The notes under the pieces were generated by a model. It did not search any database, was not told the origin of the DNA, and was given only the letters and a program-made list of their open reading frames with translations. The position numbers were made by a program, and so were the translations under genes. A stretch of DNA of 40,382 nucleotides from Tubiluchus corallicola (lineage: Eukaryota; Animalia; Priapulida). Shown one piece after another: positions 33-25,538 of this stretch. Location: positions 1 through 40,382 of the forward strand of contig JAQGDQ010001453.1 in assembly GCA_030141605.1 (NCBI GenBank), written 5' to 3'. Each line of letters begins with the position of its first letter. Position 1 is the first letter of the stretch.

Positions 33-218
33 GATGAACTTTCACCTGGTTCAGTAGCATTTCAGATTTACGCTGTAGATGATTTGGATCATGATGAAAA
101 TGCCGAAGTTGAGTACAGAATTTTGGAAAATGGTCACCACACGTATTTCAACCTTGTATCTGGTCCTGGGATTCGTGACGTCACAGTGGCTAAAGAACTT
201 AGCGAGATTTATTATTAC
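33..218 (+). CDS. cadherin exon (DELSPGSVAFQIYAVDDLDHDENAEVEYRI...EIYYY)
   Basis: ttttatag acceptor, gtacgt donor, phase 0-0, cadherin A-x-D-x-D and Y-x-I motifs. Confidence 0.85.
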
Positions 219-3200
219 GTACGTTTAATAGCTAAATTGGAATTTCCTGGTGTTAAGTATGCACGGTTGCACTAATCTTTTATCTTTCTTTTCCGCTTCA
301 AATTCAAACTTGTAAATAAATGTTTAACCCAATCTGCTAAAAAAGCAATAGTCCAAGTAATGGCTTGAGCATTCTAAACAAGGTGTTTTTTGTGTATTTA
401 GGTGCAAGTAATGGCCCCCGAGCCACGTATTCTAAACAAGTACTTAGGTACAGGTAATGGCTCGAGCCAAGTATTCTAAACAAGGTGTTTTTTGTGTACT
501 TAAGTACAGGTAGCCACGCATTTTAAACAAGGTGTTTTTGTGTACTTGGGTACAGGTAGCCACGTATTCTAAACAAGGTGTTTTTTGTGTACTTCGGTAC
601 AGGTAGCCACGTATTTTAAACAAGGTGTTTTTTGTGTACTTGGGTACAGGTAGCCACGCATTTTAAACAAGGTGTTTTTGTGTACTTGGGTACAGGTAGC
701 CACGCATTTTAAACAAGGTGTTTTTTGTGTACTTCGGTACAGGTAGCCACGTATTCTAAACAAGGTGTTTTTCATGTACTTAGGTACAGGTAGCCATGCA
801 TTCTAAACAAGGTGTTTTTCATGTACTTAGGTACAGGTAGCCACGTATTCTAAACAAGGTGTTTTTCTTGTACTTAGGTGCAAGTAATGGCTCAAGATTG
901 TCCATCCTGTGAACCAGATGGTCAACTTTCTATCGAACGCAACATCACGATTAGAGTTGTTTATGATGAACTAGAGATTCCAACATTCGACAGGAATGAT
1001 GTAAGTGGTTAGAGGTTTAAAGGAAAACCGGATGATTGATTAGACTCAATCTCATTTTAATTTACTGTCCAAAATATGCATTTTTTACCTATTAAAGTTA
1101 ACAATTTTTCTAATATCTGAATAACAAGCTTGAAAAGTTAATTAAAGACAACTGAATACAGCTGTCACTTACGTCACAAACTAACCACAGTCAGATTATC
1201 CTCATTCTCGCGCATTGAGTCAAATGACCTCACTTTGAAGGCAAGAAGTGCAAAGAGTGGACCAAGTGCGCCGAATCTGCCATCTTGATATAAATTTTCT
1301 TATTTGTGATATAAGAATACCACAGTTGTGTGTTTAAATGCAGTGCAATCAATCGGAGCAGTTACTTCGTGGCAATAAAGACCTCACATTAAACTAAGCA
1401 TTGTTGTTTGGGTATCATCTCAATATATCAAACGAGTTTGGATTCATGTATTTTGGACTTGTATTGTGGTCCACAAAAGCCTTGATGATTCAAGGATGAA
1501 TTTGTGACTATAGATTCACAAGTAGATAATAGAAAATAGTTTCCTATCGACCGATGGTAAAACTCGCATAAATTCGTACTTGAACCCTGGACCCATTGGC
1601 CGCTGTCAACATTACAATATTCACATCTTCTTCTTCCCAACTTTTCCCTATTCGGGGTCGCCGTTGTGAATGGGTCTTTTCCACGCATTCCTGTTGTTGA
1701 CCATCTCTTCATTTATGTCTTCCCTTCCCACATGATCTTCACCGACTCTTCTTTTCAGGTGTCCGTACCATCGCAATCTTGCGAGGCTTCCACTACTTTT
1801 ACTGTTCCTCTGATATTATTATTTCTAATTTTATCTCTTCTTGTTATTCCCAACATCCATCTCAACATCCTCATCTCCACCACACCCATTTTCTTCTCTT
1901 CAGTCTTCTTTAGAGAAGCTGCTTCCAGCCCATAGATTAGAGCGGGTCTGACCATTTCTTCGTGGACTTTACCTTTAAGTCTCACCGACTCATTCATAGA
2001 AGGTTTTGGCGCACTTTTTGCAGGCGGATGCTCTTCCTGACCCTAACCCTCCCTATTTATCCGGGCTTGGGACCGGCACTGAGTTGGGCTGGCTTGCCTA
2101 CGCCATCCCCCCCCCCCAGTGGCTAGCTTAACATTACAATATTCACATATTGACTATAATAACTGCAAACAGAACTTACATAAATCACAATTCTGTGTAA
2201 CAACTTGGCATTTCTACAATTATGCATAAATATATTCAATAGTTTATACGTAGTACTTCTACGAGGGATTCAAAGTTTATAAAATTCATCATTTGTGTTA
2301 CTTTGCAGGTGCCTCCAGATCTGGAGTTGGAGGAGCATACAGCAGTTCCATACGTCTTAGACAAGAGCGGAAATCTTCCTCCGGCTTCTTATATTGATGA
2401 TGAAGTTGACGATAGTATTTGCTATGATGTTGTAGGTGAGTAAAATGGTTTCGCATTCAATTACTGCAGTTAAGTAATGAACACTGTCAACTCTGGTCAT
2501 CCAGCTAGGTGGCACTACAATCGCACTTGTGGCATACTGCTAATGAAAACACCAGTTGAAATAGTTGTTGTAGTTTTGTGATCAGATATGTGTATTTTGA
2601 ATGTTATTTTAAACTTTTAACACTAGATGGAGACACTGGTATTTATTTTTTATTACAATAGGTGGAGACACAGGTAATCAATTCAGAGCCGATGCTGTAG
2701 GAGACGGGAAGGAAAGATGGAACTTGACAAATGTCGTTGAAACGGACAGAGAAATAATCGAGAATTACGAGTGTAAGATTTTTTTGTAGAAGTTACTCCA
2801 CTGAAAGTATATCCGTTTTATGAGTTTGAATTTCTGATATCGAAAAGCTTAAACTTAGTCCATATTTTTTGAAGAATAGGGTAATTAAAAACTAAAAACT
2901 AAACTCAGATTTTTTTGTATTTTTTAACTTGTTTTTACCAAATCAAATCGCATGTATTAAATTTTGCTTTAAAAGGGATAAGTGTATTATAAAATTTTGT
3001 TTTAAAAGGGGTAAATGTATTATAAAATTTTGTTTTAAAAGGGATAAGTATATTATAAAATTATGTTTTAAAAGGGGTAAGTATATTATAAAATTTTGTT
3101 TTAAAAGGGATAAGTATATTATAAAATTTTGTTTTAAAAGGGATAAGTATATTATAAAATTTTGTTTTAAAAGGGGTAAGTGTATTATAAAATTATGTTT

Positions 3201-6200
3201 TAAAAGGTTTAAATGTATTATAAAATTTTGTTTTTCATAGATCATCTGTTGACCGTTTAGTGATACAGCAGCACATAAAAATCTTTTCTTATCCGTTTCT
3301 TTCCTAAAGTTTCTGTTTTTCTCTTTCTTTCTCGGTCATTAAATCGCGCATCACTTTTTTGGAAGTGGTCTTATCTGTGGCTCTTGTTTTTCAGTGGTTG
3401 TTCGTGCCAGGAATTGTAGAGCTGCCATAGATACGAGGGAGGTTCCCTACGATCCTGCGGATCTTACCCTCATACAGATAAACGTGAAAGTTTTAGACAT
3501 CAATGATCAGTCACCGGTCTTTGATTTGCAACTTTATGAAGCCGGAATGACGAGCGATTATAAACTAGACATGCTAGTCACAGATCAGATAAAAGTAAGT
3601 ACATGGCTGAGTGGTTACGTGCGCATGACTTGCATGACTACCTGGTTAAGATACTCGCTTTGAGAGGTTTCATTTCCTGTAGCGTTTCTTGTTGTTTGTC
3701 TCATCGCATCGTAGTAGATTGTGTACGAACACTACTGAGACACCTCTTGTGGTTCACTGGCTCAGTTTGAAGCTTGCATTGATCTTGAAACAAACATAAC
3801 TGTTGCATGACAGCAACATAATTGAGTAAGCCATGCTGTTGAATAATGGATTACGGCTTACAATGTGTGTTACGCATGAGCTCGATTAGTGATGACATCA
3901 TTGGGTAGCGTTCTCCAATGGCAGAAATCTTTCATAAGCATATTTTCAGTTTTTCAACATGCACATGAAAGTGAAGTAGTATATTTGGCATCAAACCTAG
4001 GGAAACGTTTACCATGGCTTCATTCATAAGCCTTTTCACAGATTTTTTTGTGTGCAAGCACAGTTGCCGCAGCATATCTTGACTACAACTGTCTCATGAC
4101 ATGTGGTTAAAGCAAAACTGTCTGTTCCATCAGTTCAGCAAAACAGTTGTTTTATGCATTAGTCTGTGTATAGAGTGATTTACTAGCAGAATCTTGCTTG
4201 GGAACAAGACAGTTGAACTAGGTAAGGTTCTAGCTAGCTGTTAAAACTGTTAGTAATACGATAGCATGGACTGCGAGACGTTGTCAAGTGTTCACAAAAG
4301 TGTTGTCTAGTACACTTAACCTTTGGCCTTTTCAACATCATCATTAATTGTTGGAACTGTGAAACGGCTTATGGTCAGCCAATTTGAAAGAAAGTTTGTC
4401 CTGGTTTCTCAGAAAGTTTGCATGAATTTCAGGTTGTATTTGCTCATTTTTCAGGCAACAAGTTCAGACTTACCACCATTTAATGTCATTACATACAGCA
4501 TTGTAGAAGATTCATGGAATTATGATGAACTGAATTATAATTATGAAGCAGAAACAAGCTTGTAAGTTACGTTTTAATTGTCTCTTGTAAACGATAAAAA
4601 ATTTAAGTTGCAAATTTAACTAAAGCAGGGGCGGAACTAGGGGGGAGCGAGGGGGCGCGCACCCCCTTGTCAAAATTTGCGCCCCTCCCCCTGCAAAATC
4701 GAACAAATAATTTTTTTTGCAGTGAAAATTGCAGTTTGCATGTAGTCATTTTCAATATGAATTAGAATTAGGTAAAAGATGTTTGGTAGCTTCAGTGTAT
4801 TATTTTCTTAAAACTTGTGTGTGATAAATTTCTGTAAATAACAATTTAGTTAGAGGCACATTAATAACGTTAGGTTAACTGAGAGTTAATTTTCTCATTA
4901 TTGCTATGTCCGCTACGCCGTCCTACACACGTGCTAATTATAGGCCTGCATGCAGTATAAAAGGGGTTAACATTGGCTTAACCATTATTTAACCACTTCG
5001 GATACCTCGTCCCCCCCCCCCCAGAAAATTTTTGCACCCCCCTGCTTGCCACATCTAGTTCCGGCCCTGAACTAAAGGCTGTTTGGACACTTGAAATTTC
5101 TCTTCTTTTGGTGAATGAGTTTTTTTTGCATTGGAATGTTCATTGTATTAATAAGTAATCTTAATGCGACATTTTTAATATGTTAGTTACTATTAGCATG
5201 ATGATAAATTTTTTAATTAAATTCTTTAACTTGTGAAACAATGATGTAGTTTGCAAATTTAGCTGTGCCGAGTAATAGTTGCTGTATTTGTTATACCAAG
5301 TATAACCAGTCATTTCAACCCTTGTTTTTTACTTTGTTACTTTCTTATGTTTATGGTCAGATACAAGTTACTGCACATATCCTCAGTTTTGCATTAAAGC
5401 ATAAACATTTTTATGATAGTGCTGCCACCTGTAGGTAGTTTTTGCTTATGAATTTAGTTGAGTTTCTGATTAAATAAGGTCTGTAGTATAAATTTATTTT
5501 GTAATTTTATCTAATGTAATTCTTCACAGACAATTTAGCAACTGCATTCTTGTTTATAGTAAGAACTCAAACAATTCTTCCCTCTTGTTTCTAGTTTTTA
5601 CTTAGTTTAGTTTTTAGTTTAGTTTATGGTTAAGTAAGCAGATAATGAATGCATTTAAATTGCTTCAGTTCATGATTTATTATTACAGAGAACCATTTAG
5701 AATTGACCCGGTCACCGCGGAGTTGTATTTGAACCACGAACCCCGTCTGGATGGGGCAGGAATTATAAAGTTCAAAGTACAAGCGGTGGACGATCCCACA
5801 CCTCCAGGGCCCCACACTGCAACGAGTGATGTTTGGGTAACTTGCACCTACATGATTTATCATAGTTTATTCACATCTGTGCTTGTAATGATATCAATTC
5901 ATGCTGTTAGTTCAGAACCGGGAAAAATATTAAAGGAAAACAGGATGATTTTTTGATAGTAATAGTCATAATAATAGTAATTTTATTTTACTCCATAATT
6001 ATACAATGATTTGACAATAAAATACACAAAAATACAAACGAACATGGGAGAAAGGCTGGCGAAAAACCAAAGGTTATCGAGTCAACCACCCTTCTCAAAA
6101 AGACAGTAAACAAAAGGACGCTAATGACAGCAGACACAACTATATTAAAAAATACATAAACGTGCAGAAATACAAAAACAAAAATACAACAACAGCAAAA

Positions 6201-9200
6201 AAAACAAAAATCAAAAACCATGACAAATTGATGAGCAACTCATTGAAAATACCTCACAATTGTTTCTGAGTGAAATCATTAAGTCCATTTTGCTGACTGT
6301 GTTGCCTGTAATATAAGAAGCATGTTCATTATTGTACATTATAGAAAGTGAATTTGCACCTTATAAAAAAATGTTTTTCAGCAAAAGTTACCACAAGAAT
6401 GTACATCTAATAGACAAAAAATTGATTTATTTGTAAGTTTTAAGAAGTGCCTTAGCGTACTGTTTATTTAGCCAATGCAGAGGTAAAGAAGTTATATGAG
6501 CAGGTAGGGAGTTCCATAATATCCTGGTCTTTTTTGAAGTATGGTAAAGTATACATTTCAATGATTATAATAATGCGAAATTGTTTCGGATATTTAAGTA
6601 ATAGGTTAAAAACTTAATTAACGACCAGCGAACCTAGTAAGTGACGACATCACAAGTGAACAATTTTAAACAGCACGAACATTTGATGAGCGTGTTGCAC
6701 ATGTCTGTGAAAGCAAAAATTTAACTAGATTGTTACCGTACAATGCTCAGTGGAATATTGAAAAACCCGGCAGATTTTGAGCTTAAAAATTAAAGTTCAA
6801 GTTTGCCGCTATGCTTACATGTGCTGTTAGACGCGTGCACCACATCACAACTGAACACCTTAGAATTAAGAGGTACAGCACCTGTTTTTCATGCAACGTA
6901 TATTCGAGATGCAGGCATTAGTGCTCATCTACCATGAATGGCAAAATGCCTGTAGCAGTAAAGAACTAGGTAATTAATACAGTTTTCTGCCACCAGGGTG
7001 TCAATGCTGTTGATACATTGAAAAAATAGAGGCTTGCAAACTTTTGTGGGTACAGGCAAATTTTTTAGCTGCCTGTCCACATTTATGGTAGAAAAAAATT
7101 GCTAAATTTGCTTAATGTTATTTAAAATTTATAAAAGTATAAATTTGTTAGACTAATATTATTATGTATTGCATGTGTTATTATGACACTATGTATAATT
7201 TCAAGTTTACACTATGTATGTTCTGTACTAGTTTAAGGTTTATGCTACTTATGTATGACTTGTTCTAGGTTTATCTTGTATCAGAAGTCAATCAACTAAG
7301 ATTCGTATCGGCATTAACTAAGGACGAGTTCAGAACCATACAGCAGGATTTCATAGAGTGAGTCAAATTTAAAGCATTTATTGTGTTACATTCAACTTTC
7401 TCAACATTTGCCACTAACAAAACTGTGAATCAAAAGCGTCCGTAAGTTGGCATAGCTGAAATTATCTTGTGATAGTTCAAAATAGAATGCAAACTTGTTC
7501 AAAAATTGGGTGAACATAATTTTTTTTCCAAGAACAAGTACTAACATTATTGGATATTTATATTCTAATTGTCAGTCTAATCACAATTATAATTATTGTA
7601 TTGCGAATAATATCAGAATGGTGATCTAAATCTTATATATCTTTCGTTTTCAGCAAACCAAATATACTTTGCTATGTAACTATTAACTTTAAAGATTTTC
7701 TTTTTATAGAAATTCTACATGGTATTAACTATCGCACGATAAAAGAATCTAAAGTGAATTAAAAAATGTACATGTACATGGCACATTAACACACGAGCAT
7801 GTTATAATATATAATGTATATTATATATAATGTTATTATCATGTTATATGTTATATAATATATATTATTTTATATATACATTAGACTTGTAATTATAATT
7901 ATAATTGTGGAAAACTTGCATTTTCAAACTCTGATACCAGCTCATGGAAGTAGTCATTTTGCTTGCAGTTATTTCTCCTGACAAGCCCAGATCTTCATCA
8001 GGAAGAGCCATCTACTGGTTTTAAACATAACTTCAATGTGCTCTTGCAATGTCCACAGCAACCACACTTTCGTATGTTGCTAAGTGTTTTGTAGAAACAC
8101 GACAAAAAACAATGGCTAACTTTAACAGTGATTTTCTCAGGTTATGTTTTTCAATGCATAGCCTGAACTTCAACGTGGATTATCTCAGCTTAGAAATAAC
8201 GTAGAATGCTGAACTTGGTATAAAAATGATTCTCATGAAATGGAGATTTAGCATATAGAATAACTAGAAAAGCTTAATTGCTGACTTATGGATGATTTTG
8301 TTGTGCAAGCACACACAGAATAATTCGCTGCAATTGTGATGCCATTTTTCTAATTGTTATCAAAATAAGCCTTTTCACAGTTCCTGTAATTGAATGTGAT
8401 CCTGAAAAGGTCAAAGGTTAAGTGTGCCAGGCATTTGTGTACACTTGACAACGCCTCGAAGCCTATGCTATTGTAATAATAGCAGTTTTAACAACTAGCT
8501 AGAACCTTACTTAGTTCATTTAGATAGATCCTGCAAGTAAATCACTCTATACAACAGACTAATGCATAATTAAGTAAAGTTCTCGTAAAACAACTAAGGT
8601 TACTGAACTGATGCTGCAGAAGGCTTTATTTTATACACATATCACATGACGGGTGTAATTAAGATGCGTTCCTGTCTTTTAAACTTTGACTTACAGCAAA
8701 AGCTTGTTACTTAAAATTAGTCCACATTGTAATTAAAGACTAAATATCATTTTGATGAGTTATTTATCTTTGCTTCAATTTTAATCATATTCTTATTAGA
8801 TTCACCTGTCGAAGTTCTAATTAGTTAATTAATTAATGGAAATTGAATTTTCGTCTGTTTTTGTAGTGAGCTGAGTCGACTAATTAATGCTGAAACGATC
8901 GTTGATTCTGTGACAAATTACGTTGATGAGAATGACGAAGTATCAGCTACTTTGTAAGTAACAATTTCTAGCTCCTTGTAACTTGTGCAGGTAACAGCGT
9001 GAATAGCTACAGTTCACAAATTTTGCTTTTCTGTTAAAATGTCTGATTTGTAAGACTTGCACAAAAGTTTATCAAGAACTTTAATTTAATATTTTCTGGA
9101 CTTGTACAAACGTTCACGTTTTATGGCACTTGATTAGTTCTCAAAATCACCACCAGGGCAGAATCATTTCTGATTTTTGTTTAGCAATAATTGGACTTTG

Positions 9201-12200
9201 TTTGTATAAAACTAGAAAGTTTAACATTCATGGAGTTGATAAGAATTTGGTCGAACTTCACCAATGAGCAAGAAGAAAGGACGTTGTGGTCATGCGTGGT
9301 CAATTGGTTATGTGTGCTGTAGCCTAGCAAGTGTGCGCGTGTGCTTGTGTGCGCATGCGCGAGCATTGTTACGCTACCTGTCGGTACAGTTTCCAGGATT
9401 GAAACAGGACTCCGGAAAACCTGGAGTCAAACTGACAAAGTAGAGCTGCTAGATGGTAGCATTAGAGCTTTGAATGGAATTTTTATGTTAATTGAATTTT
9501 TTGTAACATTTTCTATTCTTTGCAGGATATCAATCTACACACATTTTGTAAAAGACGGAGAAATTGCAGAAGCCGATGTGATTTATGAGTGAGTTTAAAC
9601 TAAACATGATCTTTGTATATTCTGCATGTGAATAGTTCAAGTACGTTTTTCAGAAATACAATCAGCACCGTTTATTAGATTCACGATTAATGTTACTGTT
9701 TTATATCATACCGATGAAAATAAATCTTATCTTATCTTATCTTATCTTATCTTATCTTATCTCATCTCATCTCATCTCATCTCATCTCATCTCATCTCAT
9801 CCTATCCTATCCTATCCTATCTACTACTATCTATCTATCTATCTACACACACACACACACACACACTATCCTATCCTATCCTATCCTATCCTATCCTATC
9901 CTATCCTATCCTATCCTATCCTATCCTATCCTATCCTATCCTATCCTATCCTATCCTATCCTACCCTACCCTACCCTACCCTACCCTACCCTACCCTACC
10001 CTACCCTACCCTACCCTACCCTACCCTACCCTACCTTATCTTATCTTAATAGACTTGATCGCTTAATTACTTATAAAAATCAGGTACGGGCCGCTCTTAT
10101 TCAAATGTACATACAAACTGTCAGTAATTGACTCAAATAATTCTGCCTGAGGTATTTAAAATAAAGCACTTGTGTTTTACGAAAGAACTTTTAACACTTT
10201 TATGTTTTCTTTACTTCACCTTTGTAGAAACAATGAAGTTAAGTTACTGTTTTGTTTGTAGGTATGTCTGTTTGTGATGCCCTAATAATACTAGCATCGC
10301 ATTTTTGCTTTGAATCTGTCACCAGCTCATCCGCTCTGATTAACCTCATTACTCAAGCATTTATGGAAACTAATTTTAAGTGTAAAGACCTAGTATTTAA
10401 AGCTCTTGCAACCGTTGCAGTACTTACTAAGCTGAAGAGTAATGACTCGTATTACTAACAAATGTTGCATCCATTGGTTAATGATTTAGTAAGTTAGTTA
10501 GTTCACAACACTCTCATCCCAAAGTGACTCTATTAAGCGGTGTCTATCGTATTGTAAAAAGTGAAACAATTTGGCTAGTGTTTAATCTTAACTTTAAAAA
10601 GCGTTTATCACATATGCTTGCTGTTGCGGTAATATAGCTTAAATCGTCCATTTAAACAAAAACAGTTTGCAAAGGCCGTAGAAAAAATCTCCTTCAATGA
10701 ATATTGTTAAATTGTACTTAAGCAGCATTGTTGTTTGTTTTTAGCAGCATTGTTGTTTGTATTTAAGCAGCATTGTTGTTTGTTTTTAGCAGCATTGTTG
10801 TTTGTTTTTAGCATTTTGAAACAGAATGACGAACAATTGAATCCATTCTATGAGGAATTCAGGATTACCGGTGTACAGGTCGGTATTTGCCTTTATAGCT
10901 TTTATAGGTATTGCTATTATAGCCTTAAAGGATTATTCCAATGCAAGTTTGTTTACATGTTGTTTATTGTCCATACTAGGATCTTGACCGGAAAGTGCAT
11001 TAACCCTTTGCTATTATAGCCTTAAAGTATTATTCCAATGCAAGTTTGTTTACATGTTGTTTATTGTCCATACTAGGATCTTGACCGGAAAGTACATTAA
11101 CCCTTTGCTATTATAACCTTAAAGTATTATTCCAATGCAAGTTTATTTACATGTTGTTTATTGTCCATACTAGGATCTTGACCGGAAAGTACATTAACCC
11201 TTTGCTATTATAGCCTTAAAGTATTATTCCACTGCAAGTTTGTTTACATGTTGTTTATTGTCCATACTGGGATCTTGACCGGAAAGTACATTAACCCTTT
11301 GCTATTATAACCTTAAAGTATTATTCCAATGCAAGTTTATTTACATGTTGTTTATTGTCCATACCAGGATCTTGACCGGAAAGTACACATCACATCTCCC
11401 ACACGAGTGTTTGTTCTTGCTTTGATCATAACCTGTGTACTTTTGCCCCTTATCATCGTCGTGCTTATATGCGTCTGGTGTGCAGAAGTAAAGAAGTAAG
11501 TCTCCAGTTAGCATTGCTATGCACTGCATGTGTTTAACACCCCGCGCAATGCACACTGCACGATCACCGCATTGCATGCACCATTTTTCTATTGTTAATT
11601 ATCACTGCCTGCACTGTGTTCTACTGAATCGACTAACTTTTGTTGTAGTTTTGACTTCGTGTCTCAAATTGATTTAATATGTATTTGATAAAAATACTTA
11701 ACTCAAGAAGAATGACTCTAAGATCTAAAATTTTTGAAATTGCTACATCATAAAATTATGAAACGCGTCGAACCGGAATCTTTGAGTGCAAAAAAACCTT
11801 TGAAACTAAACGAAACTTGAGCTGGTTCATATCTAAATACTGTTCAGACTTCACTTTGTCTCATTTATGAAAAATTCAACTTCATGTAGATGAAAACGAA
11901 ATTTTTTTGCCTTTGTCAAAGTGTATTTTTCTTTCTAATTAATCGAAGAGCTATTTAATTCAATATCTTTGGTCTTCCTTGATTGAGTCATAGAGCAGAA
12001 AATTCGGTGGTCAAGTATTTTTATCAATTTATTTATCAGCTAACTTCTTTTTAACTAACACTATAATTTATGCATGCATTCATTATTTTTGTTACCACTA
12101 GAGGGTGTACGTCGAGGAAGTGATACTTGTTGACCAATCGCACTCCTATCTGATTGCACTGATTATTTGCGTAGTCGTGCTGTGTCTTATTATAGTAATT

Positions 12201-15200
12201 TTATTGGCCATTTGGTATCACGAAGCACAGAAGTAAGTTTGATTGTGAAACTGCTATGTAGTTGTTTATAACATTGCCATTTTGCTTGTGTGTTGTTACA
12301 TAGTTAAGTTCTTGTACACAGAAATTAGTACACATTTACAGTAACACACTACAGACAGTTGTGAAAGACGTTCTTTTGTTGTTAGTCAAGTTTTCGTGGA
12401 CAGAAATTAGTACACATTTACAGTAACACACTACAGACAGTTGTGTACGTTCTTTTGTTGTTAGTCAAGTTTTCGTGCACAGAAACAGACAGTTGTGAAA
12501 GACGTTCTTTTGTTGTTAGTCAAGTTTTCGTGGACAGAAATTAGTACACATTTACAGTAACACACTACAGACAGTTGTGAAAGATGTTCTTTTGTTGTTA
12601 GTCAAGTTTTCGTGGACAGAAATTAGTACACGTTTACAGTAACACACTACAGACAGTTGTGAAAGATGTTCTTTTGTTGTTAGTCAAGTTTTCGTGGACA
12701 GAAATTAGTACACATTTACAGTAACACACTACAGACAGTTGTGAAAGACGTTCTTTTGTTGTTAGTCAAGTTTTCGTGGACAGAAATTAGTACACATTTA
12801 CAGTAACACACTACAGACAGTTGTGTACGTTCTTTTGTTGTTAGTCAAGTTTTCGTGCACAGAAATTAGTACACGTTTACAGTAACACACTACAGACAGT
12901 TGTGAAAGACGTTCTTTTGTTGTTAGTCAAGTTTTCGTGGACAGAAATTAGTACACATTTACAGTAACACACTACAGACAGTTGTGAAAGATGTTCTTTT
13001 GTTGTTAGTCAAGTTTTCGTGGACAGAAATTAGTACACGTTTACAGTAACACACTACAGACAGTTGTGAAAGACGTTCTTTTGTTGTTAGTCAAGTTTTC
13101 GTGGACAGAAATTAGTACACATTTACAGTAACACACTACAGACAGTTGTGTACGTTCTTTTGTTGTTGGTCAAGTTTTCGTGGACAGAAATTAGTACACG
13201 TTTACAGTAACACGCTACAGACAGTTGTGAAAGACGTTCTTTTGTTGTTAGTCAAGTTTTCGTGGACAGAAGTTAGTACACATTTACAGTAACACACTAC
13301 AGACAGTTGTGAAAGATGTTCTTTTGTTGTTAGTCAAGTTTTCGTGGACAGAAATTAGTACACATTTACCATAGCACACTACAGACAGTTGTGAAAGACG
13401 TTCTTTTGTTGTTAGTCAAGTTTTCGTGGACAGAAATTAGTACACATTTACAGTAACACACTACAGACAGTTGTGAAAGATGTTCTTTTGTTGTTAGTCA
13501 AGTTTTCGTGGACAGAAATTAGTACACGTTTACAGTAACACACTACAGACAGTTGTGAAAGATGTTCTTTTGTTGTTAGTCAAGTTTTCGTGGACAGAAA
13601 TTAGTACACGTTTACAGTAACACACTACAGACAGTTGTGAAAGACGTTCTTTTGTTGTTAGTCAAGTTTTCGTGGACAGAAATTAGTACACATTTACAGT
13701 AACACACTACAGACAGTTGTGTACGTTCTTTTGTTGTTAGTCAAGTTTTCGTGCACAGAAATTAGTACACGTTTACAGTAACACACTACAGACAGTTGTG
13801 AAAGACGTTCTTTTGTTGTTAGTCAAGTTTTCGTGGACAGAAATTAGTACACATTAACACACTACAGACAGTTGTGAAAGATGTTCTTTTGTTGTTAGTC
13901 AAGTTTTCGTGGACAGAAATTAGTACACATTTACCATAGCACACTACAGACAGTTGTGAAAGACGTTCTTTTGTTGTTAGTCAAGTTTTCGTGGACAGAA
14001 ATTAGTACACATTTACAGTAACACACTACAGACAGTTGTGAAAGATGTTCTTTTGTTGTTAGTCAAGTTTTCGTGGACAGAAATTAGTACACGTCCACAG
14101 TAACACACTACAGACAGTTGTGAAAGACGTTTCTGTTGTTAATTAGTCAAATTTTCTTGCTTTGAAATTGTATTCATTTACTGTAACACACTAAAAGCTG
14201 TTATAAAACAAACTAGTGTTAGTTTGCCAGTTTTTGTACAGAAAAATTGATGTTCATTTACCGCAAAGCCTAGCACAATACAAACAGTTATGAAAGACAT
14301 TCCGCTTTCATTCACAGGAGAGTAAAAGCAGTTGGAACGTGGTAAAGCAAAGCTGTCTGAATATGTATGGGGTCTATAAGCAGTAGAGACTTGGAATGAA
14401 ATTTGTTAATTTATGCCAGATTTGACAGAAGTGGTGTAGATTCTTTCCAAAAAGAAATGCTGCAAAACAAAAAAAACTGTGCGCGAAGTTTGAAAAGCAA
14501 TTTACACGATTTTTGCCTCTCTAAACTATTCACACTTTATATTATTTTTTTACTTATTTTGAAGTTTATTTCAGCACACACAGTGATGTTATATAAAAGG
14601 AGCAATTTACACTAAAATTTAAAAAACACTATATGTCATGCACTATTAAAAGAACTACTAATATATACAAAAAAAATATGATAAAAACACGTACAGAATT
14701 TAAAATTTCTTTTATTTATTTTGAAGTTTATTTCAGCACATACACAGTAACGTTATATAAATGGAGCAATTTACATTAAAATTTTAAAAAACACTATATG
14801 TCATGCACTGTTAAAAGAACTACTAATATATACAAAAAATATGATAAAAACACGTACAGAATTTAAAATTTCATAGTGTAAGTTAAAAAGCTGCTTTTAC
14901 TAAATCAATAAACTTGACCATCTCTTACATATTCTGCTGTATACAATGAAATTTGCAGACTTGGTGATTCGTTGTCTTAAACTGAGTGATGCAGTAGTAT
15001 CTAGAATGTTGTATGCTGTTTTGTGCACATATTATAGAAGATGGCGTATCATAAGCATAACATGTAGAAAACTTGTGAAGAGTATTGTTGTAAGTGATGC
15101 AGATCTTGGTTAAACTGTATGCTTTGAAATTGTTTTATGGTAAAATACCAACTTGTTTTTTTTTTGTGTTTCTTTATTCTGGTATCTTAGCTGGTTTATT

Positions 15201-18200: not shown

Positions 18201-21200
18201 CTCACAATGCTTTGTCATCGTTAACAATTTCCACAATTAGTACAAGTCAGTAGACGCTGCTCTGCACAGTAACAATTCAGTCATTAACAATTACGTATCT
18301 TTAATAATCAGGGCAGTTTATTAGTAACTAGCAGTTAGAACACGGGGGGGGGGGGGGAGATTTTCATTTCAACACAGACATCTGTCATCTCCGATAACTA
18401 GTTTTGTTATTAATTACTGGTAGTAATGAGGAATAATTATGGGTAATTACTATACTTAGTGGTAATCAATGTCTAAGATAAGTATGAAAATATTAATACA
18501 TTATTTGAAATCGCTGTGTAGGCTGTGTGAGTTCAGCGCCATGTTTGGCCAATTTTAAACACTCTGGATGACACATATTCAGGTTTGTAGACACAGAGGT
18601 TTCTGTGCTACTTTGGGAAAAAAACTCAATGTATTTTGAGGAAATTTTTGTACGGTGCTCTGGTTTTGATGTTGAGTTTAGGAACTAATTTTGTTTTATT
18701 GATTAACACTAAATGAATTGAATGCACAATATTAGTTGTTGAGATTGGGTATTGTAGGCTTTAGCGTTTGCTTGTGCAAGAAATAACGTATTTTAGTTAT
18801 TTGAATTTCTTAATGTACTTGCAGTGAAAATTATTTATAAAGTTTAATTTGATTTAGTTAAAATGTTATTAACTGACTGAAAAACTTCTTAATCAAACAA
18901 CATCATTAATCATCTTATTTCATTGCACGTTAGATCATAGACTATTTCTATGTATTTCATCTTTTCAATACCTACATCACCTGTGTATCATTTCTTCTTT
19001 CTGAGGCCTTTTTATCCGTTTATTTGTCTCTTTGATTGTTATCATTGTCATTGTTATTGTTATCATTGTCATTGTTATCATTGTCATTGTCATTGTCATT
19101 GTTATCATTGTCATTGTCATTGTCATTGTTATCATTGTCATTGTCATTGTTATCAAAAAACGGTCATTGTTAACATTGATATTTCATTTAAAATTTCAGG
19201 TGAAACAATGGAAGTTGACTTGAATACATTGAAAACTCCAAACACAAATAAATACGCATACGAGGGGTAAGACTGTTACAGTACTTAAAACGTTGTATGT
19301 TTACATACACTAACTATGGCGGTACCTATGGTTTAATTTATCTAAACAGATTTAATGCTAATTTATTTGTTAAAAAATTGAAGAAAATGTGAGTTATAGT
19401 TGGTTTGGTATTGTTAATTAATTAAGTTGAATTGAAGTTGAACAGTTGTAAGTTGACGACAAGCTGTAATTTGATAAACAATTTTTGGTTGATAAGAGGC
19501 TGAGAAGTGAGTAAAACTTTCCATTTTGAAGGCATCTCATTATTCCTAAGACCAAAATCTTCCTCAAGTAAACTGGCACTTGAAGTACACATTATGCACT
19601 GAAAAATGTCATCTTGAGAAAAACGCTGTTAAGGTTAGCCATTGTTCTTTGTTGCGTTTCTACAAAACATTTAGAAACCGTACAAATGTTGGTTACTACA
19701 GGCTTTGCAAGAACCTTGAAGAAGATCTGGGTTTGGCAGAAGAAAAACCCTGAAGTAAAATGACAGCTTCCATGAGCTACTATTTGAGTTTGAAAATAGG
19801 AATTTTTTCAATTGCAGTACTAGTTTTTAGCCTGAAAAGTGGGTACGGAGATATAAAAATAGATTTTTGATATTTTTGAATATGTTCTTGATAACCTAAT
19901 GCTATAATACAAAAGTTCAATGTATATATAGCATTTGTTTAAAAAAAATTACATTTGACCAACTCTGAAGCATTCTACTTTGAAGCATCATAATGCAGTT
20001 TTAACTATGCCGACTCATGGATGGTTTTGGTTTGCAAGCACACAGTTAATTTTACGCAGTTTTTGTGATGTTTTCTCTACATGCTACAGTGCTGCCACCT
20101 ATAGTGTGATTTATTAAATTGCTAGTGAGTTCTTGAGATTGGTTTTCTTGTTTGCAGATCTAATCCTATCTGGATGGAGCAGGATTATGACAATCCGGGA
20201 TTTGAGGAGCACGAGCATGAGGATGAGGATGATTCAATCAGGTGACATATTCGTGTTGCGAAAATTTGAAATACTTAATTACCGTGACAGCAATGTGCAC
20301 CACACAGCTTCAATTACCAATAGACTATACAAAAATGCCCTTTGTACTGTTAGTTGTACTTAGTAATATTATTATTAGTAGCAATAATATTAGTACTGTA
20401 CTTTTTGAGCAGGTTGTTAGTACATTCATTATTATTAATTGTTGTTATGAATTTCTTGAAAACCAGAGATTGTTGTATCATTTTATCTGCAATTTGTAAA
20501 ATAGGAATTGTTTTAATCATCGTAAGAGTGTTTAATTTGATTTTTATATAGGCCTCTTACTTTTAGTTTAGAAAGTACTGTTTGTGTAATCTTACTTCTC
20601 TTTATTTTTATTCTAATGCTTTAAATTGTAAAAACAATTTGTATTTTAAACTTACTAGAAGTTCATTAACTGCTTTACTGTCTGTATGACCAGAATCTTC
20701 CGCCCTGAAAATGCTAATATGACTGGCCTGTACTGTCCTGTTTAATATGCAAATTAACTGCTATGTACACCAGTAGCAATAATATACACCACATGCCACG
20801 CACGTAATAGAGTTGTTGAGAATAGACAGTGGTGCTGTCCTCTATTGGCCAAAAAGTTAATGCATATAGGCCAGCAAATGACTAATGTGGGCAAAACTTG
20901 TAGAAAAGATTGCTGTTATTGCTTAATGTGCACAGCAGTCTGCTGTTTGGTTCTACTCTGCATTTTACATGATGCTTTAAATTATGCCGCTCAAAATAAA
21001 AACGAATCAGCGGCAGTAGTGGAAATTATGGGGGTTCTAGCAGCCATGGTGGTGACGATGACAGTTTTGACAGTAAAACTGATGGTGATGTATGAAAAGT
21101 TGAAGTCATTTCTGTAATCGCTAACAGTATAAATGAACAGTAGCAACATTTCGTTTTCTTAAAGTATTCCCCTACATCAGATACAGTGACAGTAAAGAGT

Positions 21201-22961
21201 TAAACAAAATGTTATTTTTGTTTTTTAGTCAAAATTCTTTAGATGAAAATAACATTGTGGACGAGGACAAACTGGAGTACAATAAAGCGCCACTAGATGG
21301 TGTTGACAGGATAAACGTGGATGATGTAAAACTTCGGAATAATTTGAACTTTTTATACAAGTAAATGTTTTTAAAATTAACATTTTTTTTAAATTAACTT
21401 TGATGAATTTGATAATTAAGAAACGGCACAAAGTGAAGTTTGTGGCTAGACGCTATTGCAGTTCTATGGCTTTGGCAGCTTCAAGATTAGTCCCTATTGC
21501 AGTTCTATGGCTTTTGGCAGCTTCAAGATTGGTCTCTATTGCAGTTCTATGGCTATAGCAGCTACAAGATTAGTCCCTATTGCAGTTCTATGGCTATAGT
21601 AGCTACAAGATTAGTCCCTTTTGCAGTTCTATTGCTATAGCAGCTACAAGATTAGTCCCTATTGCAGTTCTATTGCTAAAGCAGCTACAAGATTAGTCCC
21701 TATTGCAGTTCTATTGCTATAGCAGCTACAAGATTAGTCCCTATTGCAGTTCTATGGCTATAGCAGCTACAAGATTAGTCCCAATTTGCAATTCTGTGGC
21801 TATAACAGCTAAAAAAGTAGTCCCTTTTGCAGTTCTATTGCTCTAGCAGCTGCAAGATTAGTTCCTATTGCTGTTCTGTGGCTATAACAGCTATAGGATC
21901 AGTCCCTATTGCAGTCTATGGCTTTGAAAGCTTCAAGATTAGTCTCTATTGCAGTTCTATGGCTATAGCAGCTGCAAGATTAGTCCCTATTGCTGTTCTG
22001 TGGCTATAGCAGCTATAGGATCAGTCCCTATTGCAGTCTATGGTTTTGGCAGCTTCAAGATTGGTCTCTATTGCAGTTCTATGGCTATAGCAGCTACAAG
22101 ATTAGTCCCTATTGCAGTTCTATGGCTATAGTAGCTCAAGGTTTATGACTAGTATAGTTCTATCGTCCCAGCAGCTATAGGACAAGCACTATTATCAGTA
22201 TGTTATTCACTTGCAAATAAAGATAAATAGCTGACTGCTATCGTGTTTGTTTTTAATGACTGAATTTGAATAAAGCTGGATCTGATCAGTAAGTGGATGG
22301 GTGATGGTCAGGAAAATCACTGCTAGGCAGTTTTGTCAGTCACTAACTTCACTAAGAGAGGATCAGATAAGACACTCCAGACAGTTCAGTATCTCATCTT
22401 GGAGATTTATAATTTATGCTTGGAGATAATAGGTTAAATACCAATAATTGTCAACTTGATAAATGGGTCCTGAATATGAACTTGTGATGTGTGGGACTGT
22501 ATGAAAAATAATGAACTGAAAGATGATCAATGTCATGGTACCAGAAGTGAACAGCCAGGATCAGCATGGCAAACGAAACTACTTAGAGGCAATAGTGAAA
22601 CTCGTTCATTAACTGATCAATTTCACTCTTGTTGCCAACTTCATTTGCCAAGCACATGCCGTGACCATTCAGCTGTTGTCGAAAAGTCGAACCTGGGTTA
22701 CATTTACAGCATTTAGTGTGCAAGGTCAAGGTCAAGGTCAAGTTCACTTAGTCAATCAAATGAATCATGATATAATTCTAACAGAGTGTAAAATAATTTT
22801 CAGTTGTTTGTTTGTTTATTGTCTGATGAACATCCATCTTTTTTTGTTGCAGCAAAACCGGTGGAGACGTGAATCATTACGTCACTAATAACGGTCTGCA
22901 GCATCAGTACGAAGATCCGGAGGTGTTACAGGTGCCAAAATTACCCACTAGCTATCTTTGA
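33..22961 (+). CDS. Non-classical cadherin, CDH23/Cad87A/Cad88C-like (3' part of a spliced gene; 5' exons lie outside the window)
   Basis: GT-AG exons with consistent phases give one open frame: cadherin motifs (DLDHDEN, TDRE, VLDINDQSPVF), membrane-adjacent domain, TM, tail YKRKLRAANAMNFG...PNTNKYAYEGSNPIW...PTSYL*. The tail motifs resemble CDH23/Cad87A/Cad88C as I recall them; exact orthology is not established. Confidence 0.9.
352..892. repeat. 46-47-bp tandem repeat (~11 copies) overlapping the acceptor of exon 878
   Basis: aaacaaggtg recurs at 478, 525, 571, 618, 665, 711, 758, 805, 852. Confidence 0.92.
878..1000 (+). CDS. cadherin exon (VQVMAQDCPSCEPDGQLSIERNITIRVVYDELEIPTFDRND)
   Basis: tacttag acceptor, gtaagt donor, 123 nt, phase 0-0. 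Confidence 0.85.
1627..2129 (-). mobile_element. internally deleted non-autonomous RTE-clade LINE derivative with 19-bp TSD
   Basis: TSD aacattacaatattcacat at 1608-1626 and 2130-2148; (GAA)n 3' tail; peptide KGKVHEEMVRPALIYGLE...EMRMLRWMLGITRRDKIRN typical of the RTE ORF C-terminus; 5' UTR retained. Confidence 0.9.
2047..2129 (-). ncRNA. twister ribozyme core (P1-type, with long P3) at the RTE 5' end
   Basis: Minus strand reads U|AA GCUA GCC ACUG...CAGU GCCGGUCCCAAGCCCGG AUAAA UAGG GAGGG, matching the canonical twister core UAA-P2-GCC...GCCGGUCCCAAGCCCGGAUAAA-P2'-GAGGG. Confidence 0.85.
2309..2435 (+). CDS. cadherin exon (VPPDLELEEH...DSICYDVV)
   Basis: ctttgcag acceptor, gtgagt donor, phase 0-1. 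Confidence 0.85.
2662..2772 (+). CDS. cadherin exon (GGDTGNQF...ETDREIIENYE)
   Basis: caatag acceptor, gtaaga donor, phase 1-1, DRE motif. Confidence 0.85.
2952..3235. repeat. 33-bp tandem repeat (~8.5 copies)
   Basis: unit tattataaaattttgttttaaaagggataagta. Confidence 0.92.
3395..3594 (+). CDS. cadherin exon (LVVRARNC...VLDINDQSPVF...DQIK)
   Basis: tttttcag acceptor, gtaagt donor, phase 1-0, DxND-x-x-PxF calcium-binding linker. Confidence 0.92.
4125..4300. repeat. dispersed repeat copy; inverted relative to ~8435-8615
   Basis: tatgcattagtctg..gtatagagtgatttac..gtaaggttctagctag..gttaaaactg..cgttgtcaagtgt is the reverse complement of blocks at 8440-8570. Confidence 0.7.
4455..4561 (+). CDS. 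cadherin exon (ATSSDLPPFNVITYSIVED...ETS)
   Basis: tttttcag acceptor, gtaagt donor, phase 0-2. Confidence 0.85.
4626..5069. mobile_element. hAT-type MITE
   Basis: TIRs caggggcggaactag / ctagttccggccctg (14/15 match); 8-bp TSD aactaaag at 4618-4625 and 5070-5077. Confidence 0.9.
5689..5836 (+). CDS. cadherin exon (EPFRIDPVTAELYL...VQAVDD...SDVW)
   Basis: attacag acceptor, gtaact donor, phase 2-0, F-x-I-D-x-x-T motif. Confidence 0.88.
7269..7357 (+). CDS. cadherin membrane-adjacent-domain exon (VYLVSEVNQLRFV...QQDFI)
   Basis: ttctag acceptor, gtgagt donor, phase 0-2. Confidence 0.85.
7905..8160. repeat. dispersed repeat copy; inverted relative to ~19590-19812
   Basis: ttttcaaactc..agctcatggaag..gtcatttt..cccagatcttc..tgttttgtagaaac..aacaatggctaac is the reverse complement of blocks at 19590-19800. 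Confidence 0.7.
8867..8953 (+). CDS. cadherin membrane-adjacent-domain exon (ELSRLINAETIVDSV...VSAT)
   Basis: ttttgtag acceptor, gtaagt donor, phase 2-2. Confidence 0.85.
9526..9588 (+). CDS. cadherin membrane-adjacent-domain exon (ISIYTHFVKDGEIAEADVIY)
   Basis: ctttgcag acceptor, gtgagt donor, phase 2-2. Confidence 0.85.
   Translation, partial: DINLHTFCKRRRNCRSRCDL
9725..10048. repeat. compound microsatellite (TCTTA)n-(TCTCA)n-(CCTAT)n-(CTAT)n-(CA)n-(CCTAT)n-(CCCTA)n-(TCTTA)n
   Basis: directly visible. Confidence 0.97.
10718..10815. repeat. 22-23-bp tandem repeat ending at the acceptor of exon 10812
   Basis: agcagcattgttgtttgt(t/a)ttt x4. Confidence 0.85.
10812..10878 (+). CDS. cadherin exon (ILKQNDEQLNPFYEEFRITGVQ)
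   Basis: tttttag acceptor, cag|gtcggt donor, phase 2-0. Confidence 0.82.
10911..11387. repeat. 97-bp tandem repeat (5 copies) containing the acceptor and first ~20 nt of TM exon A
   Basis: ctattata recurs at 10914, 11011, 11108, 11205, 11302. Confidence 0.95.
11368..11495 (+). CDS. transmembrane exon A (DLDRKVHITSPTRVFVLALIITCVLLPLIIVVLICVWCAEVK)
   Basis: accag acceptor, gtaagt donor, 128 nt, phase 0-2, ~23-residue hydrophobic segment. Confidence 0.78.
12102..12232 (+). CDS. transmembrane exon B (RVYVEEVILVDQSHSYLIALIICVVVLCLIIVILLAIWYHEAQ)
   Basis: ccactag acceptor, gtaagt donor, 131 nt, phase 0-2, hydrophobic segment aligning with exon A. Confidence 0.82.
12300..14150. repeat. ~82-bp minisatellite (~22 copies)
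   Basis: unit cagaaattagtacacatttacagtaacacactacagacagttgtgaaagacgttcttttgttgttagtcaagttttcgtgga. Confidence 0.97.
14545..14872. repeat. ~160-bp tandem duplication
   Basis: ttattttgaagtttatttcagcaca...cacgtacagaatttaaaatttc occurs twice. Confidence 0.85.
15465..15505 (+). CDS. cadherin juxtamembrane cytoplasmic exon (KYKRKLRAANAMNF)
   Basis: tttttag acceptor, g|gtaaga donor, phase 2-1, basic stop-transfer motif. Confidence 0.85.
16083..16315. repeat. 72-bp tandem repeat (~3.2 copies)
   Basis: ggctgatgcattgtttcggagtttagtggtcatatga x3. Confidence 0.9.
16983..17178. repeat. ~101-bp tandem duplication
   Basis: acaagtatgcgtagctttgagtgtc...tttaccctaggtagaa x2. Confidence 0.9.
17344..17352 (+). 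CDS. candidate 9-nt microexon (adds AKR)
   Basis: ttgtttatttcag|ctaaacggg|gtgagt; consensus sites, phase 1-1, frame-preserving. Confidence 0.5.
17484..17867. mobile_element. hAT-type MITE with subterminal TTCGA repeats
   Basis: perfect 14-bp TIRs taggggtgagcatt / aatgctcaccccta; 8-bp TSD atttttgt at 17476-17483 and 17868-17875. Confidence 0.92.
19034..19154. repeat. (CATTGT)n / TATCATTGT simple repeat
   Basis: directly visible. Confidence 0.92.
19200..19266 (+). CDS. cadherin cytoplasmic exon (GETMEVDLNTLKTPNTNKYAYE)
   Basis: atttcag acceptor, gtaaga donor, phase 1-2, PNTNKY motif. Confidence 0.88.
20158..20241 (+). CDS. cadherin cytoplasmic exon (GSNPIWMEQDYDNPGFEEHEHEDEDDSI)
   Basis: tttgcag acceptor, ag|gtgaca donor, phase 2-2, G-x-NP-x-W motif. 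Confidence 0.85.
21229..21360 (+). CDS. cadherin cytoplasmic exon (SQNSLDENNIVDEDK...NLNFLY)
   Basis: ttttttag acceptor, aa|gtaaat donor, phase 2-2. Confidence 0.75.
21452..22142. repeat. 41-bp tandem repeat (~17 copies)
   Basis: unit ctattgcagttctatggctatagcagctacaagattagtcc. Confidence 0.93.
22853..22961 (+). CDS. cadherin terminal exon (KTGGDVNHYVTNNGLQHQYEDPEVLQVPKLPTSYL*), class I PDZ ligand
   Basis: tttttgttgcag acceptor, phase 2, TGA at 22959-22961, S-x-L C-terminus. Confidence 0.82.
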
Positions 22962-25355: not shown

Positions 25356-25538
25356 TATGATGAATTTATCGAAACAGATAAAGGTTTTAAGTCGTCAACT
25401 GCCTGTAGTGCAAAATATCAGTACATGGAATTTTCAGGTGAACATTTGCCCAAACTCAGACAAATTCATATTAATATAATTTTGTTCTTAGCACTGATCA
25501 CCTCTCTATGACTCTTTATTTTTTGAAACAGGTTTTTA

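What the first reader, a model, noticed from the sequence alone, without database searches (positions are those of the whole stretch)
11368..12232. Tandem, mutually exclusive transmembrane exons in a CDH23/Cad87A-like cadherin
Seen: two paralogous exons (128 and 131 nt), both phase 0-2 and both ending aa|gtaagt, each encode a full TM helix (VLALIITCVLLPLIIVVLICVWCAE vs LIALIICVVVLCLIIVILLAIWYHE). Either alone joins in frame to KYKRKLRAA. Both together give TM-A plus KGCTSRK* (stop 12121-12123), a tail-less membrane form. Skipping both gives VQEKTSCC*, a secreted form. Known: mutually exclusive TM exons occur in Drosophila Dscam1 (17.1/17.2) and N-cadherin. I do not know of them in this cadherin subfamily. 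Inference: this is a TM/juxtamembrane switch that could alter trafficking, partners or palmitoylation (different Cys placement). The exons are ~600 nt apart, so exclusion is not steric.
Basis: partly seen in the sequence, partly recalled or inferred. Interest (0 to 1): 0.8.

Follow-up and report, generated by a model that had tools for sequence, protein, structure and literature searches.

The report
Two swappable anchors, cadherin-23-like gene
An invertebrate gene of the cadherin-23 family, whose vertebrate member forms the tip links of hearing cells, carries two old side-by-side copies of the exon for its membrane anchor and likely uses them one at a time, a switch known from fly Dscam1 and N-cadherin that would here swap a cysteine-bearing anchor for a cysteine-free one.

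Summary
Exons A (11368-11495) and B (12102-12232) are paralogous, phase 0 to 2, and the only two transmembrane-type exon candidates of that shape in the window. They sit in a cadherin-23-like gene. Synonymous sites between them are saturated while both stay intact, so both were under selection until recently. A relative's intron-less contig joins the upstream exon directly to A, with 7 of 8 listed changes silent. B is intact in a second DNA sample, but no B transcript was available. UGCAUG motifs downstream of A and upstream of B suggest an RBFOX-type switch; no docking/selector pairing stood out. A keeps cytoplasm-side cysteines (present in 19 of 23 homologues); B lacks them. None of 8 multi-member homologue clusters shows such a swap, and 10 paper searches found none for this family. 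The scan has noted the same kind of switch in other genes (nephrin, pseudo-ADAM, calnexin), not in this family. New member of a known kind.

The parts
33..218 (+). exon e1, cadherin repeat (gene's 5' part lies outside the window)
   Evidence: Pfam PF00028 E 0.003, 18.4 bits, below the curated cut-off; open frame in model
878..1000 (+). exon e2, cadherin repeat; acceptor is last unit of a 47-bp x 9 repeat
2309..2435 (+). exon e3
   Evidence: splice sites and frame
3395..3594 (+). exon e4, cadherin repeat with calcium-linker motif
   Evidence: 81 PDB cadherin-type hits at E<=10; 1508 hits at E<=0.001
4455..4561 (+). exon e5
5689..5836 (+). exon e6, end of last cadherin repeat
7269..7357 (+). exon e7, membrane-adjacent domain
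   Evidence: aligns to the PF23206-matching region of lamprey CDH23
8867..8953 (+). exon e8, membrane-adjacent domain
9526..9588 (+). exon e9, membrane-adjacent domain
10812..10878 (+). exon e10, common upstream exon, ends in phase 0
   Evidence: joined to A in contig of run X2
10911..11387 (+). 97-bp x 4.9 tandem repeat that copies A's acceptor and first 20 nt; decoy starts at 10980, 11077, 11174 (TAG) and 11271 (no AG) hit a stop after 7 codons
11368..11495 (+). transmembrane exon A: stalk with three basic and two acidic residues, helix with a proline, two cysteines at the cytoplasmic end
11515..11640 (+). candidate intronic regulatory block: TGCATG at 11525 and 11573, seven TGCAY, ACTAAC at 11632
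   Evidence: motif function inferred
12040..12101 (+). B acceptor region: branch-point-like motifs at 12050 and 12054, TGCATG at 12071, no other AG in the last 60 nt
12102..12232 (+). transmembrane exon B: stalk with three acidic and one basic residue, no cysteine in the last 10 residues
15465..15505 (+). exon e12, common downstream exon with the basic juxtamembrane motif
19200..19266 (+). exon e13, tail motif shared with CDH23
20158..20241 (+). exon e14, tail
   Evidence: joined to e15 in X2 contig
21229..21360 (+). exon e15, tail
22853..22961 (+). last coding exon, ends in a class I PDZ-type motif (S-x-L) and stop
   Evidence: junction itself not seen in RNA

Best explanation
Exons A and B are old tandem duplicates of the transmembrane exon of a cadherin-23-like gene and are likely spliced in a mutually exclusive way, which would give two full-length cadherins that differ only in the stalk, helix and first cytoplasmic residues. 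Shown: paralogy, intact frames and splice sites, saturated synonymous divergence, and the upstream-exon-to-A junction in a relative. Inferred: B is used in some tissue or stage; exclusivity is enforced largely by frame, because double inclusion and double skipping create premature stops that NMD would remove; the choice is likely steered by RNA-binding proteins, with an RBFOX-type protein at the UGCAUG sites favouring A (sites downstream) and disfavouring B (site 25-30 nt upstream of its acceptor, between branch point and AG). The likely effect on the protein is a change in palmitoylation and membrane sorting (A has cytoplasm-side cysteines, B has none) and in stalk charge; this last step is untested.
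For: Paralogy: score 59 vs shuffle maximum 34. Same phase, lengths differ by one codon; both give full frames. Over the last 28 codons pS 0.79 (saturated), dN 0.49, 10 of 13 identical residues use different codons, second positions 20 of 28 identical vs third positions 12 of 28. A neutral copy of B keeps frame and splice sites in 14% of simulations at 0.1 substitutions per site, 1.7% at 0.3 and under 0.1% at 1.0. X2 contig: 115 nt on exon A with 15 differences, preceded by 30 loose letters that match the end of e10 at 26 of 30 with four silent third-position changes; 7 of 8 listed changes in A silent, P about 0.001. X1 (DNA, reads through introns) holds B with no difference and donor intact, against 11 differences in 574 intron nt (P 0.08 for zero in 131; Fisher 0.23). 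B has branch-point-like motifs and an AG-free zone and the joint-best donor of the gene. The 150 nt after A is the only place in the window with two TGCATG or six or more TGCAY. Precedent: NMD dependence in 14 of 19 non-3n clusters and RBFOX control of exon pairs in C. elegans (PMC4165533, PMC3585155, passages).
Against: No transcript containing B was seen, and no junction into 15465 from either exon. B's acceptor has the lowest score of the 17 acceptors in a crude gene-derived matrix (-2.6 bits). The polymorphism contrast for B is not significant. B could not be checked in any other species. The motif counts are post hoc and their conservation is untested; one TGCATG upstream of B is within chance (P 0.07). 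None of 8 multi-member homologue clusters has a swapped transmembrane segment, so there is no support from deep conservation. X2's status as RNA is the tool's guess, although two intron-less joins fit it.
Confidence: 0.75

Rival explanations
1. B was once an alternative exon but has recently fallen out of use; the gene now always uses A.
For: Only A was seen spliced; B's acceptor scores lowest in the gene; a recently dead exon would still look intact in 34% of simulations at 0.05 substitutions per site.
Against: B keeps a perfect donor, branch-point-like motifs and an AG-free zone, has no difference in a second sample and survived a period long enough to saturate synonymous sites.
Confidence: 0.12
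2. A and B behave as loosely coupled cassette exons, and the double-inclusion (tail-less, membrane-bound) or double-skip (secreted) products are real regulated proteins.
For: The 606-nt intron permits A to splice to B, and both products can be read off the sequence. No structural lock on exclusivity was found.
Against: Stops lie 433 and 297 nt upstream of the last junction, the pattern of NMD substrates (rule recalled; C. elegans data in PMC4165533). B's transmembrane frame is conserved, which double inclusion would not need because it reads B out of frame.
Confidence: 0.06
3. Mutually exclusive pair whose choice is set mainly by competing RNA pairings (Dscam-type docking/selector) rather than by bound proteins.
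For: An 18-nt, 94% complementary stem 11685-11702 / 12010-12027; the same element can pair more weakly with the start of exon A; an element at 12036-12054 pairs with both A and B donors (-10.3 and -9.2 kcal/mol vs -3.7 to -5.0 for six other donors).
Against: The stem (-18.0) lies near the 10th percentile of 120 matched background windows; 1 of 15 region pairs beat all 25 shuffles and it needs a large loop; the block after A folds no better than shuffles (z 0.56). No covariation data.
Confidence: 0.1
4. Assembly artefact: two haplotypes or paralogous genes merged.
For: The region is rich in tandem repeats.
Against: A and B are 35% identical as protein, far beyond allelic; no other exon of the gene is duplicated in the window; a second DNA sample has contigs running from A's end into the intron and from the intron through B, though 32 nt between them are not bridged.
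Confidence: 0.02

Closest known systems
Drosophila Dscam1 exons 17.1/17.2 (TM1/TM2; PMC2566808, passages; PMC8042237, passages)
   Same: Two alternative exons encode the transmembrane segment of an adhesion receptor; one is used per transcript.
   Different: Ig-family receptor, unrelated gene; TM1 and TM2 are shown to sort to dendrites and axons, whereas nothing is tested here.
Arthropod N-cadherin exons 18a/18b (PMC2655722, passages)
   Same: A cadherin with a mutually exclusive exon pair that covers the transmembrane domain.
   Different: Classical cadherin; exons are 68-70 aa and include an EGF-like part; the isoforms showed no difference in localisation in that paper, which tempers the trafficking idea. 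Here the exons are 43-44 aa in a non-classical cadherin-23-like gene.
Vertebrate CDH23 (lamprey S4RP29, Sparus A0A671XG50; exon 68 splicing in PMC10927504, abstract and introduction)
   Same: Membrane-adjacent domain, single helix, basic juxtamembrane motif and conserved tail motif align at 25-29% identity, E down to 2e-21; alternative splicing tunes the membrane-anchored end.
   Different: The described vertebrate event is a cassette exon in the cytoplasmic tail, not a swap of the transmembrane exon.
About 1900-aa 'cadherin-23-like' proteins of arthropods, chiton and hemichordate (e.g. XP_035210793.1, XP_040572715.1, XP_064617448.1; 'Cad87A group' is my recalled label)
   Same: Best sequence matches (E 6e-31 over the membrane-adjacent region); the window's protein branches beside the arthropod set at 89/92 support.
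   Different: All sampled records carry one transmembrane version; the window's branch is very long, so placement is unsure.
C. elegans egl-15 5A/5B and unc-32 7a/7b (PMC4165533, PMC3585155, passages)
   Same: Mutually exclusive pairs with UGCAUG elements read by RBFOX proteins; NMD backs up non-3n clusters.
   Different: Elements there are tested genetically; in unc-32 the UGCAUG lies after the second exon, here two lie between the exons just after A.

Membership tests
homologous mutually exclusive exon pair | adjacent paralogous exons | tested here: met
homologous mutually exclusive exon pair | same phase, similar length, each restores the full frame | tested here: met
homologous mutually exclusive exon pair | both copies under purifying selection | tested here: met
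   A directly from a relative; B indirectly from saturated pS with intact frame and sites, which cannot exclude very recent loss
homologous mutually exclusive exon pair | each exon found spliced in transcripts | tested here: inconclusive
   e10>A seen in X2; one small contig set cannot show B
homologous mutually exclusive exon pair | double inclusion and double skipping rare in mature RNA | not testable with these tools
   no raw RNA reads served
homologous mutually exclusive exon pair | both exons present in related genomes | not testable with these tools
   no genome held; no related locus found
steric-exclusion pairs | branch point too close to the upstream donor | tested here: not met
   606-nt intron; branch-point-like motifs about 45-50 nt before B inside its AG-free zone
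docking/selector (Dscam1-type) control | competing intronic pairings above background and conserved | tested here: inconclusive
   best stem near the 10th percentile of background; conservation untestable
cadherin-23-like non-classical cadherins | tandem cadherin repeats | tested here: met
cadherin-23-like non-classical cadherins | membrane-adjacent (PCDH15-like, PF23206) domain before a single helix | tested here: met
   by alignment to the PF23206-matching region of lamprey CDH23; single short exons gave no Pfam hit
cadherin-23-like non-classical cadherins | juxtamembrane and tail motifs shared with CDH23, C-terminal PDZ-type motif | tested here: met
   the C-terminus is S-x-L where most homologues end T/S-E-L
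one-to-one CDH23 or Cad87A orthologue | repeat number and supported tree position | tested here: inconclusive
   5' part outside the window; end branch 4.18, no starred group holds it, no PCDH15/Cad99C outgroup in the tree

The most novel reading that the evidence does not exclude
This lineage has independently evolved an RBFOX-controlled, cell-type-specific switch of the membrane anchor of its tip-link-type cadherin: A makes a palmitoylated form and B a non-palmitoylated form with an acidic stalk, so sensory or microvillar cells and other epithelia would anchor, sort or shed the same cadherin differently, an invertebrate counterpart to hair-cell-specific CDH23 exon 68 splicing that acts in the membrane itself.
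Probability: 0.2. Interest if true: 0.65.

Novelty: new member of a known kind. Interest (0 to 1): 0.42.

Why it matters
It would be a first example, as far as my searches reach, of a transmembrane-exon switch in the cadherin-23 family, whose vertebrate member transmits force in hair cells. It gives a natural pair of proteins that differ only in 43-44 residues around the membrane, a clean test of what the anchor (cysteines, a proline, stalk charge) does for sorting, lipidation or shedding of these cadherins. It adds to a pattern in which adhesion receptors repeatedly duplicate the transmembrane exon. The mechanism class is well known and such genes are usually picked up by RNA-based annotation, which limits surprise.

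Tried and rejected
No whole genome is held. No RNA holder was listed for 11368-12232; 2 runs were served. The X2 contig ends at 11479, so the exon that follows A was not seen; the second lay showed 12 of 617 loose ends, none at 15465. Word-based protein searches with e4 and with exon B (longer proteins, up to 2000 aa) found nothing. Metagenome scan with the A/B alignment: 1 of 243 candidates passed, and it has in-frame stops and no cadherin motif, so it is chance. ESM Atlas with exon B gave only generic single-helix clusters under 0.9. No look-alike stretch among earlier scan findings. RNA pairing searches gave nothing above background. No third transmembrane exon and no duplicate of other exons; no better alternative last exon between 21361 and 27000. 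PMC2447487 was opened but the held text had none of the terms; bioRxiv 2024.08.06.606874 passages and PMC8373072 passages named no CDH23 transmembrane swap. No structure or complex prediction was run: no binding claim is made.
Full report
Observation. Both exons are at the stated coordinates with AG acceptors and identical GTAAGT donors, 128 and 131 nt long, entering in phase 0 and leaving in phase 2. Each encodes a 19-residue stretch with mean hydropathy 3.4 and 3.9. They are 35% identical as protein; the global score of 59 compares with a maximum of 34 in 2000 shuffles. A scan of both strands of the window for exons of this shape returns only A and B, and tblastn of all 17 exons against the window finds no other duplicated exon apart from partial copies of A's start in the upstream repeat.

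Gene. I modelled 17 exons on the + strand from 33 to 22961; the 5' part of the gene lies outside the window. With A or with B the frame stays open for 585 or 586 residues to a stop after an S-x-L motif. With both exons the frame shifts and stops at 12121-12123, 433 nt before the last junction; with neither it stops in e12, 297 nt before it. Exon e4 matches cadherin repeats. Of the 150 proteins listed, 5 also matched the membrane-adjacent region and tail: lamprey and sea bream cadherin-23, a copepod 'cadherin-23', and snail and hemichordate cadherins. A search with the copepod region gave 20 proteins, mostly about 1900-aa 'cadherin-23-like'. In a tree of 24 rows the window's protein sits beside the arthropod set at 89/92 support, on a very long branch and with no PCDH15 outgroup, so the family is clear and exact orthology is not (P0168 and duplicate isoforms were left out). 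'Cad87A group' is a recalled label; PMC10898740 (passages) lists cad87a and cad88c only as low-score CDH23 candidates, and PMC2600741 (passages) uses Cad87A as an apical-surface marker.

Selection and age. Over the last 28 aligned codons synonymous sites are saturated (pS 0.79) while dN is 0.49; 10 of 13 identical residues use different codons. In a simple neutral-decay simulation B stays intact in 34%, 14%, 1.7% and 0.03% of 4000 runs at 0.05, 0.1, 0.3 and 1.0 substitutions per site. So B was maintained by selection over nearly all of its history; only a recent loss remains open.

Independent data. Two runs were served. X1 is DNA by its contigs through introns: one silent change listed in A, none in B, 11 differences in 574 nt of the A-B intron (P 0.08, not significant). 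X2, guessed to be RNA, is a relative: one contig lies on exon A for 115 nt with 15 differences, and the 30 loose letters shown before it match the end of e10 at 26 of 30, all four changes silent. This is the 10878>11368 junction. Of the 8 differences listed inside A, 7 are silent (P about 0.001); the eighth is a first position whose third position lies in the unlisted zone. X2 also joins e14 to e15. Because A is much closer to the relative's A (87%) than to B, the duplication likely predates that split (inference). B and the junctions into 15465 were not observable in these data.

How exclusivity and choice probably work. Steric exclusion is out: the intron is 606 nt and B has branch-point-like motifs at 12050 and 12054 in an AG-free zone. 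Both exons are 3n+2, so wrong combinations shift the frame; in C. elegans 14 of 19 non-3n clusters depend at least partly on NMD (PMC4165533, passages). That the premature stops here trigger decay is inferred. The first 150 nt after A hold two TGCATG (expected 0.07, P 0.002) and seven TGCAY (expected 0.46); it is the only such site in the window (motifs chosen after looking). A third TGCATG lies at 12071, just before B (P 0.07 alone). The same paper describes RBFOX repressing from the upstream intron (egl-15) and promoting from downstream (unc-32; also PMC3585155, passages), which fits 'RBFOX present: A; absent: B'. This is a hypothesis. Against a pairing mechanism: the best stem (11685-11702 with 12010-12027) is near the 10th percentile of background, and 14 of 15 region pairs did not beat all shuffles.

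What the swap changes. A has two cysteines within 10 residues of the basic juxtamembrane motif, as do 19 of 23 homologues (one or more); B has none, like the two vertebrate CDH23, the snail and the scorpion rows. Such cysteines are typical palmitoylation sites (own knowledge; search listing only). A also has a mid-helix proline and a net-basic stalk; B's stalk is net acidic. Precedents point both ways: Dscam1 TM1 and TM2 sort to dendrites and axons (PMC2566808, passages), while N-cadherin 18a and 18b showed no localisation difference (PMC2655722, passages).

Novelty. In 8 homologue clusters with two or more members covering the helix no member has a swapped transmembrane segment; isoform differences fall elsewhere. 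This samples mostly arthropod annotations and does not exclude unannotated pairs. Ten paper searches (listings, with the passages named above, and abstract plus introduction of PMC10927504) gave no report of a transmembrane-exon switch in CDH23-type cadherins; the described CDH23 event is cytoplasmic exon 68. No supplements were read; exon catalogues could hold an example. Earlier unreviewed scan notes report similar pairs in nephrin, a pseudo-ADAM and calnexin of other genomes, which I did not test.

Verdict. A real, old, selected pair of transmembrane exons, about 75% likely a working mutually exclusive switch, with A shown spliced and B inferred. Known kind of mechanism in a family where I found no earlier report. 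Interest 0.42.

Noticed in passing
window 465-886, 10721-10813, 10911-11387: Three of the gene's 17 acceptors (e2, e10, A) are each the last unit of a tandem repeat (47 bp x 9, 22 bp x 4.2, 97 bp x 4.9) that copies the acceptor and the first exon bases, leaving rows of decoy 3' splice sites. Either a recurrent slippage at splice sites that the spliceosome tolerates, or an assembly feature.
   Followed up: partly
window 12301-14193: 82-bp x 21+ tandem array starting about 70 nt after B's donor and filling most of the B-e12 intron.
   Followed up: no
window about 25500-26550, minus strand: Open frame with many C2H2-type zinc-finger motifs (some degenerate), convergent with the cadherin gene.
   Followed up: no
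window 33107-35917, minus strand: Frames resembling endonuclease and reverse transcriptase of a non-LTR retrotransposon, broken by stops (family recalled, not searched).
   Followed up: no
window 1640-2042, minus strand: Fragment resembling the C-terminal end of a LINE reverse transcriptase in intron 2 (recalled).
   Followed up: no
window 12036-12054: Short element over B's branch-point region that is complementary to both A's and B's donor (-10.3, -9.2 kcal/mol) more than to six other donors; too short to judge without relatives.
   Followed up: partly
P0188, P0168 (Orchesella cadherin-23-like records): Two springtail records end with a short alternative tail soon after the helix, lacking the conserved tail motifs; could be intron read-through in the annotation.
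   Followed up: no
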